IMG/VR virus record: IMGVR_UViG_2778261380_000007
Location: 1 to 29,228 of that record
DNA from: a virus
Taxonomy: Duplodnaviria > Heunggongvirae > Uroviricota > Caudoviricetes
Length of the DNA: 29,228 bases
Strand: one strand, 5' to 3'
The notes below the pieces were generated by a model. That model was not told where the DNA came from. It did no database searches and saw only the letters and a program-made list of their open reading frames with translations. Position numbers and translations under genes: made by a program. This document shows, piece by piece, positions 20,588 through 23,708 of the stretch (position 1 is the stretch's first letter; each line of letters begins with the position of its first letter).

Positions 20588-21025
20588 TTATTTCAGGCAC
20601 TGAGTCCTGATGTACTCCTGCAGGTAGTTAACCTGCGCGGTTATCTTGTCGATTCCACTTCGGAGACGGTAATAATTGAGTTCAGCATCTGCTGTAAGTC
20701 TTGGGCTTTCTCCATCGCCCATGCTGCTGGCTCCGGTCGTTGACTTTGCACAGGTGGCGGCGACTTGCAGGCGCTTACGCCCAGCAGAAACATCAGCACG
20801 AAGGCTTTCGATAGTAGCGTTAGCATCAGCAAGCTCCTTTGTGTATCTGGCGTCGAGTTCTGCTACATCACGTTGACGCTTCTGCATATCAGCGATGATG
20901 GATGTGGCTTTGTCGCGCTGGTCTTTATAGGCGATGGCGTTATCACGGTAATGATTAACCGCCCATGAAAGGCAGACGATGACGCAGATAACCAGAGCGG
21001 AAATAATCGCGGTTACTCTGCTCAT
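20588..21025 (-). CDS. Rz: Spanin inner-membrane subunit (i-spanin)
   Basis: 145-aa ORF; N-terminus [31 protein letters not shown] is nearly identical to lambda Rz as I recall it. Confidence 0.9.
20641..20832 (-). CDS. Rz1: Spanin outer-membrane lipoprotein subunit (o-spanin), embedded in the +1 frame of Rz
   Basis: 63-aa ORF wholly inside Rz; signal peptide with lipobox (LLGVSAC) followed by a Pro-rich segment ([16 protein letters not shown]), as in lambda Rz1. Confidence 0.85.
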
Positions 21026-21498
21026 ACCTCAATCTCTCTGACCGTTCCGCCAGCCTCTTTGAATTTTGCAATCAGGCTGTCAACCTTATGCTCGAACTGA
21101 CCGTAACCGGCCCCCGGCAGTGAAGCCCAGATATTACTGCAACGGTCGATTGCCTGACGGATATCACCGCGATCAATCATCGGTAAAGCGCCACGTTCCT
21201 TAATCTGTTGCAGTGCCACAGCGTCCTGGCTTTTCGGAGAGAAGTCTTTCAGGCCAAGCTGCTTACGATAGGCATCCCACCAACGGGAAAGAAGCTGGTA
21301 GCGTCCAGCGGCTGTTGATTTGAGTTTGGGGTTTAGCGTGACAAGTTTGCGAGGGTGATCGGAGTAATCAGTGAATAGCTCACCACCTACAATGACGTCA
21401 TAACCATGATTTCTGGTTTTCTGCCGTCCGTTATCAGTTCCCTCTGACCACGCCAGCATATCGAGGAACGCCTTACGTTGATTATTGATTTCCACCAT
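21022..21498 (-). CDS. R: Endolysin, lambda R-type lytic transglycosylase
   Basis: 158-aa ORF, essentially identical to lambda R from memory ([35 protein letters not shown]...). Confidence 0.95.
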
Positions 21499-21805
21499 CT
21501 TCTACTCCGGCTTTTTTAGCAGCGAAGCGTTTGATAAGCGAACCAATCGAGTCAGTACCGATGTAGCCGATAAACACGCTCGTTATATAAGCGAGGTTGC
21601 TACTTAGTCCGGCGAAGTCGAGAAGGTCACGAATGAACCAGGCGATAATGGCGCACATCGTTGCGTCGATTACTGTTTTTGTAAACGCACCGCCATTATA
21701 TCTGCCGCGAAGGTACGCCATTGCAAACGCAAGTATTGCCCCGATGCCTTGTTCCTTTGCCGCGAGAATGGCGGCTAACAGGTCATGTTTTTCTGGCATC
21801 TTCAT
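21482..21805 (-). CDS. S: Holin/antiholin, lambda S (S107/S105 dual start)
   Basis: 107-aa ORF, identical to lambda S from memory, starting [10 protein letters not shown] with the Met1-Lys2-Met3 dual-start motif; upstream DNA matches the lambda S leader. Confidence 0.95.
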
Positions 21806-22103
21806 GTCTTACCCCCAATAAGGGGATTTGCTCTATTTAATTAGGAATAAGGTCGATTACTGATAGAACAAATCCAGGCTACTGTGTTTAGTAATCAGAT
21901 TTGTTCGTGACCGATATGCACGGGCAAAACGGCAGGAGGTTGTTAGCGCAACCTCACGCCACCCGCTTTCACGAAGCCAGCCATTACGCTGGTTTTCTTT
22001 TATGCAAAGCACACCGCACCGTAGCCACAGCGGATAAGGTGATTATTTTTGTCTGTCTGGTATTTGGGTTGATGTGCTTTCAGAAAGGTCGTGATTAAAA
22101 CGC

Positions 22104-22131
22104 AAAAAGCCCCGAGCTATTAACTCAGGGC
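22104..22131 (-). terminator. tR'-like rho-independent terminator in the late leader
   Basis: - strand: GCCCUGAG-UUAAUAG-CUCGGGGC (one G-U pair) followed by UUUUU, about 30-55 nt downstream of the predicted pR' start. Confidence 0.65.
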
Positions 22132-22160
22132 TTTATTTAACGAGTGCATTTATCCATCGT

Positions 22161-22196
22161 TGGGTCAAATTTACCCAACTTTATTCAAAAAGTCAA
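22161..22196 (-). promoter_or_regulatory. Late promoter pR' (-35 TTGACT, 17-bp spacer, -10 TAAATT) with the overlapping qut region
   Basis: The - strand reads TTGACTTTTTGAATAAAGTTGGGTAAATTTGACCCAACGATGG, near-identical to lambda pR' as I recall it, directly downstream of Q. Confidence 0.8.
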
Positions 22197-22238
22197 TATC
22201 ATGCCGTTAATATGTTGCCATCCGTGGCAATCATGCTG

Positions 22239-22862
22239 CTAACGTGTGACCGCATTCAAAATGTTGTCTGCGATTGACTCTTCTTTGTGGCATTGCACCA
22301 CCAGAGCGTCATACAGCGGCTTAACAGTGCGTGACCAGGTGGGTTGAGTAAGGTTTGGGATTAGCATCGTTACAGCGCGATATGCGGCGCTTGCTGGCAT
22401 CCTGGAATAGCCGACTCCTTTGCATCTTCCGCACTCTTTCTCGACAACTCTCCCCCACTGCTCTGTTTTTGCTATATCAACCGCACGGCCTGTACCGTGG
22501 CAATCTCTGCACCTTGCTCCCGGCGTCGCGGCACTACGGCAATAATCCGCATAAGCGAATGTTGCGAGCACTTGCAGTACCTTTGCCTTAGTATTTCCTT
22601 CAAGCTTTGCCACGCCACGGTATTTCCCCGATACCTTGTGTGCAAATTGCATCAGATAGTTGATAGCCTTTTGTTTGTCGTTCTGGCTGAGTTCGTGCTT
22701 ACCACAGAATGCAGCCATTCCGAATCCGGCTTGTGATTGCGCCATCCCCATAGCAGCCATCACATCAGTACCGGAAAGAGAGTCAGAAGCCGTAGCCCGT
22801 GGTGAGTCGCTCATCATCGGGCTTTTTGGCGAATGAAATTTAGCTACGCTTTCGAGTCTCAT
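22239..22862 (-). CDS. Q: Late gene antiterminator Q (lambda-type)
   Basis: 207-aa ORF, essentially identical to lambda Q from memory, including the Cys-rich zinc-binding region (CRDCHGTG...CGRCKG). Confidence 0.95.
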
Positions 22863-23524
22863 GCGCCTTCTCCCTGTACCTGAATCAATGTGAGATTTCC
22901 GTAGAACACTGCGCCGGTATCGATATACATCTGGTTGGCAAACTTGAGTGGTTTCACTGCTGGCGTATGACCAAAGATGAACGTGTCCGCGCCTTTGATT
23001 TCTTTCACGATCCCGTCTTGTGAGTTGCTGATTCGTTCGCGGTTCCAGATTACCTGCTGATGATCAACTGGCTTACCAAACTCGTATTCGTCACAAGGAT
23101 AATCGGCGTGGCAGATGACATATTTTTTACCTTTGCTCACCAGTTCGATGATTAACGGAAGTTCATCTGCTTTATGGGCAAGAGCTTTAGCCAGAATTTC
23201 TTTGTCGTAATCGAGATTAAAGAACCAGCCACCGCCATTAAGCAACCAGTGATTGACGTTTCCACGCTCTGATAAGCCATCAATCATCATGTGCTCATGG
23301 TTTCCACGTACAGCTCTGAACCAGGGGAATGTGATTAATTCCAGGCATTCGACGTTCTCTGTACCGCGATCGACCAAATCGCCAACCGAGATAAGCAGGT
23401 CTTTTTTGGTGTCGAATCCTATCGTCTCCAGTTTTTCCATCAGGTTCGTGTAGCATCCGTGCAGATCGCCAACTACCCAAATATTTCGGTATTTGCTGCC
23501 ATCAATTCTTTCGTAATAGCGCAT
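22859..23524 (-). CDS. ninI: Ser/Thr protein phosphatase (lambda NinI / orf221)
   Basis: Start placed at ATG 23522-23524 ([25 protein letters not shown]...), giving 221 aa and matching lambda phosphatase motifs GDLHG, GDLVDRG, GNHE; the ORF-track start at 23599 is an upstream extension overlapping ninH. Confidence 0.9.
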
Positions 23525-23708
23525 CTCTTTCACTCCATCCGCGATGAACCATGAGAACGTCGTTGACGATGGCGTGCATTTTCCCGTCTTTATCATCAAC
23601 GTATTTTCTTACCGTACCGCGACTACATTTCAGTCTGCGTGCTACTTCTGTCTGGTTTCCGTATGCTTCAACGAGCATGTCTGGAATGGTTTTTACTGAG
23701 AACGTCAT
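23502..23708 (-). CDS. ninH: NinH
   Basis: 68-aa ORF identical in length and near-identical in sequence to lambda NinH from memory. Confidence 0.9.

What the first reader, a model, noticed from the sequence alone, without database searches (positions are those of the whole stretch)
21806..22238. Truncated late leader: lambda-identical pR' and S-upstream sequences, but the terminator lies only ~30-55 nt from the start
The Q-S interval is 433 bp against ~680 bp in lambda as recalled. The pR' hexamers/qut and the S-proximal leader match lambda, but the central part is different and a terminator hairpin (22104-22131) follows the promoter almost immediately. The constitutive short late RNA would therefore be about a quarter the size of lambda 6S RNA.
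Basis: partly seen in the sequence, partly recalled or inferred. Interest (0 to 1): 0.45.

Follow-up and report, generated by a model that had tools for sequence, protein, structure and literature searches.

The report
P22-type short late-leader terminator (known)
The stretch between the late-gene activator Q and the lysis gene S carries the lambda/P22 late promoter followed by a transcription terminator about 30-60 nt downstream; this is the ordinary, already annotated late-control layout of phages P22, HK022 and HK97, not an unusual truncation.

Summary
The genes lie on the minus strand: Q is 22862..22239 and S is 21805..21482, leaving a 433-nt interval against 676 nt in lambda. The pR' hexamers (TTGACT, 17 nt, TAAATT) are identical to lambda's. 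Lambda homology runs from Q to about +22 of the transcript and resumes 171 nt before S. Between these stretches, 163 nt replace lambda's 406 nt. A strong intrinsic terminator (stem 22134..22106, T-run to 22097) starts at +28/+31, so the Q-independent RNA should be about 58-65 nt, roughly a third of lambda's 194-nt 6S RNA.

It is not a truncation and it is not new. The whole interval is 94-99.8% identical to the Q-S interval of viable phages Gally, HK140, HK544, HK022, HK97 and the mEp phages. The promoter-to-terminator part is 93-98% identical to P22. The P22 GenBank record annotates this same hairpin as "t late or tR'; antiterminated by gene 23 protein", 30 nt after the annotated RNA 5' end. 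The central segment occurs in 261 of 5426 complete E. coli genomes, against 217 for lambda's version.

The region is a mosaic: a lambda/P22-type Q-qut module, a P22/HK-type tR' module and a lambda-type lysis cassette. Interest is low.

The parts
22239..22862 (-). Q late antiterminator gene (207 aa), lambda type
   Evidence: ORF. The protein is 206/207 identical to lambda Q (single L135Q difference) and 202/207 to P22 gp23.
22168..22196 (-). Late promoter pR' (P late): -35 TTGACT 22196-22191, 17-nt spacer, -10 TAAATT 22173-22168
   Evidence: Promoter scan. Same hexamers and spacing in lambda and P22. Aligned with the 'P late or P R'' feature of BK000583.
22170..22190 (-). Q-binding part of qut (TTTTGAATAAAGTTGGGTAAA)
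   Evidence: Two mismatches to the lambda Qut string quoted in the HK/mEp phage records. Identical to P22 across this stretch.
22145..22168 (-). -35-like TTGACC (22168-22163), transcript start A at 22161, -10-like pause element AACGAT (+1..+6, 22161-22156) and the expected sigma-70-dependent pause at +16/+17 (22146/22145)
   Evidence: +1 placed by alignment to the P22 feature 'P late RNA 5' nt' 37887. AACGAT is conserved with lambda and P22. The roles of these elements come from established lambda Q literature and were not tested here.
22097..22134 (-). tR' / t late intrinsic terminator: stem 22134-22106 (G+C core 22131-22109), T5 22108-22104, GCG, T4 22100-22097
   Evidence: Terminator scan. 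Fold -19.1 kcal/mol, z -4.7. Aligned with the P22 annotated 't late or t R'' 37917-37945 and the Emek annotated terminator. Nearly invariant in 10 related phages.
22097..22161 (-). Predicted Q-independent short late RNA, about 58-65 nt (5' hairpin +1..+23, A/U-rich linker, terminator hairpin, U tail)
   Evidence: Fold of the 65-mer: -23.3 kcal/mol, z -4.6, 0 of 200 shuffles as stable. No Rfam family at gathering score. The 3' end is predicted, not measured.
21977..22096 (-). Central leader segment of P22/HK type, with no lambda counterpart
   Evidence: 97-100% identical to HK140 and Gally, 69% to P22, no lambda match. The homologous stretch of P22 contains the reported 101-nt P22E RNA.
21806..21976 (-). 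S-proximal leader of lambda type, including a conserved hairpin at about 21964-21920
   Evidence: 98% identical to lambda 45015-45185, 70% to P22. Hairpin fold -23.2 kcal/mol.
21482..21805 (-). S holin/antiholin gene (dual start), first gene of the late operon
   Evidence: ORF. Protein identical to lambda S.

Best explanation
This is the late-gene control region of a P22-like prophage. It combines a lambda/P22-specificity Q-qut module with the P22/HK022/HK97-type promoter-proximal terminator tR'.

**Without Q (inferred by homology).** Host sigma-70 RNA polymerase starts constitutively at pR' (+1 = 22161). It pauses at +16/+17 because sigma-70 re-binds the -10-like AACGAT. It then terminates at the hairpin and U-run spanning +28 to +58, releasing an RNA of about 60 nt.

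**With Q (inferred by homology).** Once Q has been made from the early rightward operon, it binds the site between the promoter hexamers. It loads onto the paused polymerase and makes it terminator-resistant. Transcription then continues through tR' into S, R, Rz and the P22-type virion genes.

**Origin (shown here).** The short leader results from mosaic module exchange. The Q gene and its cis site (to about +22) travel together, while the terminator module downstream is interchangeable because Q-modified polymerase ignores any terminator. Sequence, structure prediction, homology and distribution are shown here. Start site, pause, termination and Q-dependence are inferred from homology to lambda and P22.
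For: - Q is 206/207 identical to lambda Q.
- The pR' hexamers and spacing are identical to lambda and P22. The qut spacer is identical to P22, and AACGAT is conserved.
- The hairpin is a strong intrinsic terminator. It aligns with the P22 feature 't late or t R'; antiterminated by gene 23 protein action' and with Emek's annotated terminator.
- The identical 433-nt architecture occurs in viable phages Gally (99.8%), HK140, HK544, HK022 (96%) and HK97 (94%). 84 phage records cover at least 80% of the pR'-to-tR' stretch.
- The central segment is present in 261 of 5426 complete E. coli genomes.
- The literature states that lambda Q and P22 gp23 are interchangeable (PMC8022706; PMC2629481). It also states that P22, 21, 82 and phi80 late promoters give short antitermination-regulated RNAs (PMC7547250).
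- The mosaic junctions are sharp. HK620 matches at 100% from the promoter to the T5 run that follows the terminator stem; its aligned match stops there. This fits the terminator being an exchangeable unit.
Against: - Nothing here measures transcription. The start site, the pause and the 3' end are positions transferred by alignment, and the P22 record itself is a third-party inferential annotation (TPA_inf).
- The -35-like element next to the pause site is TTGACC rather than lambda's TTGACT, and four bases between +9 and +17 differ from lambda. The same variants occur in functional phages.
- I could not read the primary 1976 P22 in vitro transcription report.
Confidence: 0.92

Rival explanations
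1. The hairpin at 22134-22106 is not the operative tR'. The leader is collinear with lambda, and the real terminator lies further downstream.
For: A second stable hairpin followed by GTTTTG lies at about 21964-21920 and is shared with lambda. From memory and unverified, lambda has been reported to carry further terminators after t6S.
Against: - The alignment with lambda shows 163 nt of unrelated sequence in place of lambda 44609-45014, which contains lambda's tR'.
- The scan finds no other terminator-like site on the transcribed strand in the leader.
- In the downstream hairpin the U-run is predicted to pair in an outer helix, and it is absent in P22.
- P22 and Emek annotate the promoter-proximal hairpin as the terminator.
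Confidence: 0.03
2. The short leader is a recent deletion or decay of a lambda-type leader in a defective prophage.
For: The interval is 243 nt shorter than in lambda.
Against: - The centre is non-homologous sequence, not a subset of lambda's.
- The same interval is found at 94-99.8% identity in plaque-forming phages HK022, HK97, HK140, mEp213 and Gally.
- Q and S are intact and essentially identical to lambda's.
Confidence: 0.02
3. Besides being a by-product of antitermination control, the terminated RNA of about 60 nt is a trans-acting, Hfq-binding regulatory sRNA expressed in lysogens, like StxS of Stx phages.
For: - Its layout resembles an sRNA: a 5' hairpin, an A/U-rich single-stranded linker (UUAAAUAAA) and a terminator hairpin with a U tail.
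- StxS shows that pR'-tR' RNAs can be regulatory, and its authors propose this for other phages (PMC7547250).
- The sequence is nearly invariant across many phages.
Against: - There is no Rfam family. The only hits, isrJ and NsiR1, are at chance level (E 0.6-0.8).
- The invariance is equally explained by qut and pause constraints together with recent recombination.
- No target or binding data exist. The RNA was not among the ten P22 small RNAs reported in PMC13397905.
Confidence: 0.1

Closest known systems
Phage P22 late control region (gene 23, P late/pR', qut, t late/tR'; GenBank BK000583 and AF527608)
   Same: - Same promoter hexamers and an identical qut spacer.
- Same +1 context and the same terminator hairpin at the same distance. 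The pR'-to-+22 stretch is 98% identical and the terminator module 93%.
   Different: - The P22 terminator loop differs (TTTAACCG against TTAATAG).
- The leader after the terminator is only about 70% identical, and P22 has its own gene 13 holin allele.
Q-S intervals of coliphages HK022, HK97, HK140, HK544, mEp213/234/X1/X2, Sf101 and Gally
   Same: The whole 433-nt interval is collinear at 94-99.8% identity, with lambda-type Q, S and R on either side.
   Different: Only point differences, for example TTGACC against TTGACT next to the pause element and one stem mismatch in HK022. Most of these records annotate the promoter and qut but not the terminator.
Lambda pR'-qut-6S RNA-tR'
   Same: Q protein (206/207), promoter, Q-binding site (2 mismatches), pause element, the first 22 nt of the transcript, and the last 171 nt before S.
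   Different: Lambda's terminator ends about 194 nt from the start and lies in a 406-nt segment (44609-45014) that has no homologue here. The terminated RNA here is about 60 nt.
Short pR'-tR' RNAs of other lambdoid phages (phi80, 21, 82; StxS of Stx phages)
   Same: Same design of a constitutive late promoter with a nearby terminator overridden by Q. The phi80 record places a putative terminator ending about 75-80 nt after the start. PMC7547250 lists such RNAs and shows a regulatory role for StxS.
   Different: These phages have different Q specificity types and unrelated leader sequences. StxS is longer and is processed to 74 nt.

Membership tests
Lambda-specificity Q antitermination module (Q + pR' + qut) | Q protein of the lambda/P22 sequence type encoded immediately upstream | tested here: met
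   206/207 identical to lambda Q and 202/207 to P22 gp23.
Lambda-specificity Q antitermination module (Q + pR' + qut) | Sigma-70 promoter TTGACT-17-TAAATT with the Q-binding element in the spacer | tested here: met
   Hexamers and spacing are identical. The spacer has 2 mismatches to lambda and is identical to P22, whose gp23 is interchangeable with lambda Q.
Lambda-specificity Q antitermination module (Q + pR' + qut) | -10-like pause-inducing element (AACGAT) in the initially transcribed region | tested here: met
   AACGAT at +1..+6 is conserved with lambda and P22. Pausing itself was not measured.
Lambda-specificity Q antitermination module (Q + pR' + qut) | Q-dependent read-through of the downstream terminator | not testable with these tools
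   Needs in vitro transcription with and without Q, or genetics.
P22/HK022-type tR' leader | Sequence homology to the annotated P22 t late/tR' hairpin at the same distance from +1 | tested here: met
   41/44 identical to P22 and 42/43 to HK140. Aligned with BK000583 37917-37945.
P22/HK022-type tR' leader | Intrinsic-terminator anatomy (G+C stem, U-run) | tested here: met
   13-pair stem with 6 G-C pairs, followed by UUUUUGCGUUUU. Fold -19.1 kcal/mol, z -4.7.
Lambda 6S RNA | Homology to lambda 44587-44781 along its length, about 194 nt | tested here: not met
   Only the first 22 nt or so are homologous. The rest, including lambda's terminator, is absent.
Curated RNA families (Rfam 15) | Match at gathering score | tested here: not met
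   No hit in the window at gathering score. The only hits in the E-value search are at chance level.

The most novel reading that the evidence does not exclude
The constitutive pR'-tR' RNA of about 60 nt, shared almost unchanged by P22, HK022, HK97, Gally and hundreds of E. coli and Salmonella prophages, could be a trans-acting prophage sRNA that acts on host or phage mRNAs in lysogens, as StxS does. If so, it would not be merely a by-product of antitermination control.
Probability: 0.1. Interest if true: 0.45.

Novelty: already known. Interest (0 to 1): 0.07.

Why it matters
It matters little beyond correct annotation. It shows that lambda's 194-nt 6S leader is one variant among several. It also shows that the promoter-proximal P22/HK-type tR' is at least as common in natural prophages. 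Many phage records annotate pR' and qut here but omit the terminator, and some call spurious ORFs across the leader. The one open question of some interest is whether this widespread, constitutively made RNA of about 60 nt has a function of its own in lysogens.

Tried and rejected
- **Rfam.** The gathering search over the whole window and the E-value search over 21750-22300 found nothing meaningful.
- **Lambda collinearity.** Rejected by alignment.
- **A further sense-strand terminator in the leader.** None was found by the scan. The hairpin at 21964-21920 is not terminator-like, because its U-run pairs in an outer helix and is absent in P22.
- **phi80 as the source of this leader.** I suspected this from a DH5alpha hit. 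It is rejected: phi80 has a different Q and leader, and the DH5alpha hit lies in another lambdoid prophage.
- **Primary papers.** Searches for 'P22 / gene 23 / qut / terminator' returned nothing directly on point.
- **Covariation in the S-proximal hairpin.** Inconclusive. P22 shows compensatory changes, but HK022, HK97, HK140 and this window carry uncompensated mismatches.

Full report
**Orientation and observation**

The late genes of this window are on the minus strand. Q is 22862..22239, S is 21805..21482, R is 21498..21022 and Rz is 21025..20588. They are followed by P22-type terminase, portal, scaffold, coat and tailspike genes. The window is therefore part of a P22-like (Lederbergvirus-like) prophage with a lambda-type Q and lysis cassette.

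The Q-S interval is 22238..21806, 433 nt. Lambda's is 44510-45185, 676 nt.

Read in the direction of transcription, the interval contains these elements:
- -35 TTGACT at 22196-22191, a 17-nt spacer, and -10 TAAATT at 22173-22168.
- The start-site context TGACCC-A, followed by AACGAT.
- The hairpin AAAGCCCTGAGTTAATAGCTCGGGGCTTT followed by TTGCGTTTT, at 22134..22097.

This hairpin is the only terminator-like site on the transcribed strand of the leader. It folds at -19.1 kcal/mol (z = -4.7, 0 of 200 shuffles as stable). The 65-nt RNA from +1 folds at -23.3 kcal/mol (z = -4.6).

**Comparison with lambda**

Alignment and segment-wise identities give the following picture.

| Segment (window) | Identity to lambda |
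|---|---|
| Q coding sequence | 98% (protein 206/207, L135Q) |
| Q stop to +22 (22238-22140) | 93% |
| 22139-21977 (163 nt) | no homologue; replaces lambda 44609-45014 (406 nt, includes most of the 6S RNA and lambda's tR') |
| 21976-21806 | 98% |
| S protein | identical |

With +1 at 22161, the G+C core of the hairpin is +31..+53 and the U5 run is +54..+58. The predicted RNA is about 58-65 nt, roughly 30% of 194 nt.

**What it is**

The 433-nt interval has 68 near-full-length matches among phage records:
- Gally 99.8%
- HK140 97.7%
- HK544 and ECP1 97.5%
- mEp234 and HK106 97.2%
- Sf101 97.0%
- HK022 96.1%
- mEp213 95.4%
- HK97 94.0%
- Salmonella P22-like phages at about 87%

The stretch from promoter to terminator is covered at 80% or more in 84 records.

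The P22 record BK000583 annotates the homologous positions explicitly:
- 'P late or P R'' at 37852-37880
- the qut-like site at 37871-37900
- 'P late RNA 5' nt' at 37887
- 't late or t R'; antiterminated by gene 23 protein action to allow full late transcription' at 37917-37945

In the alignment these map onto window 22196-22168, +1 = 22161 and the hairpin 22134-22106. AF527608 (P22-pbi) and phage Emek carry the same terminator annotation.

Across ten relatives the promoter, start region and terminator are almost invariant.

**Mechanism**

The mechanism is inferred from established lambda and P22 knowledge plus homology. RNA polymerase initiates constitutively at pR'. It pauses at +16/+17 through sigma-70 binding to the -10-like AACGAT. 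Without Q it terminates at tR', giving an RNA of about 60 nt.

Q, which here is essentially lambda Q, binds between the hexamers. It loads onto the paused complex and renders it terminator-resistant, so the S-R-Rz and virion genes are transcribed. P22 gp23 and lambda Q are reported as interchangeable with the same target (PMC8022706; PMC2629481).

A terminator starting at +28/+31 is compatible with loading at +16/+17. The viability of HK022, HK97, P22 and Gally with this layout shows that it works.

**Why the leader is short**

The leader is a three-part mosaic:
- the Q + qut module, to about +22, of lambda/P22 type
- the tR' module plus about 120 nt, of P22/HK type
- the S-proximal leader and lysis genes, of lambda type

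Q and its cis site must stay linked, while any terminator will serve downstream. This fits the sharp junction at about +22. It also fits HK620, which matches at 100% from the promoter to the T5 run that follows the terminator stem, where its aligned match stops.

**How common it is**

| Leader centre | Complete E. coli genomes (of 5426) | Phage records |
|---|---|---|
| This 163-nt centre, at 80% coverage or more | 261 | 68 for the full 433-nt interval; 84 for the promoter-to-terminator stretch |
| Lambda's 406-nt centre | 217, the top listed hits mostly laboratory lambda or DE3 lysogens | 21, lambda and its derivatives |

**Literature**

PMC7547250 describes lambda 6S RNA. It states that similar antitermination-regulated short RNAs come from the late promoters of 21, phi80, 82 and P22, citing Roberts et al. 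1976. It also shows that the equivalent Stx-phage RNA, StxS, is a regulatory sRNA.

The phi80 record likewise places a putative terminator within about 80 nt of pR'.

I could not access the primary P22 transcription report.

**Rivals**

- A more distal true terminator, or collinearity with lambda, is excluded.
- A decayed or deleted leader is excluded by the non-homology of the centre and by identical intervals in viable phages.
- A regulatory role for the short RNA cannot be excluded. It has no support beyond its sRNA-like layout and the StxS precedent. Rfam gives nothing.

**Verdict**

'Truncated' should read 'P22/HK-type module'. The feature is already known and annotated, and interest is low.

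Noticed in passing
window 21973-21996 (+ strand): A terminator-like hairpin oriented against late transcription (GAAGCCAGCCATTACGCTGGTTTT followed by CTTTTATG). It sits exactly where lambda homology resumes. P22 has a hairpin at the same place with a different stem register (CCCAG/CTGGG) and the same T-run. Its fold on the sense strand is weak (-9.9 kcal/mol, z -1.8). What leftward transcript it would stop is unknown.
   Followed up: partly
window 21920-21964 (- strand): A stable hairpin in the S-proximal leader (-23.2 kcal/mol), shared with lambda (-26.3) and P22 (-22.1). P22 shows apparently compensatory changes, but HK022, HK97, HK140 and this window carry uncompensated mismatches, so covariation is inconclusive. 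It is possibly an RNA processing or stability element of the late mRNA.
   Followed up: partly
window about 21987-22086 (- strand); P22 AF217253 19716-19816: A 2026 paper (PMC13397905) reports an abundant 101-nt P22 small RNA, 'P22E'. Its sequence maps to the leader segment just downstream of tR' and ends in the loop of the antisense-oriented hairpin. The homologous window segment is only about 69% identical to P22. It may be a processed piece of the antiterminated late leader.
   Followed up: partly
window 22098-22133 (- strand): The terminator hairpin alone has near-exact matches of 30-36 nt in unrelated phages: Hafnia phage Meifeng (97%) and Pantoea phage AH01 (100%). This suggests that the same terminator cassette is reused in other contexts.
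   Followed up: no
window 21857-22012 (-) and 21901-22098 (+): Some records annotate small hypothetical proteins inside the leader. Examples are HK140_065 on the sense strand, WP_029798719 on the opposite strand in a DH5alpha assembly and vse13_060. The calls are mutually inconsistent and overlap predicted RNA elements, so they are probably spurious.
   Followed up: no
window 22163-22168 and Q codon 135 (about 22458-22460): There are small differences from lambda in functional elements. The -35-like hexamer next to the pause element is TTGACC, against TTGACT in lambda, P22 and HK140. Emek, HK022 and the DH5alpha-assembly prophage also read TTGACC (Gally has TTGACC but differs at the next base). 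Q carries L135Q.
   Followed up: partly
window 22239-22862 (Q, + strand antisense): The P22 record annotates an antisense promoter and terminator (a23, C1-activated) inside gene 23. The Gally/LF82 study saw macrophage-specific antisense transcripts starting at Q (PMC9928086). I did not check whether the a23 elements are conserved in this window's Q.
   Followed up: no
window 22859-23599 (- strand): The NinI-like Ser/Thr phosphatase ORF upstream of Q is listed as 246 aa from a TTG start, against 221 aa in lambda. The real start is probably an internal ATG.
   Followed up: no
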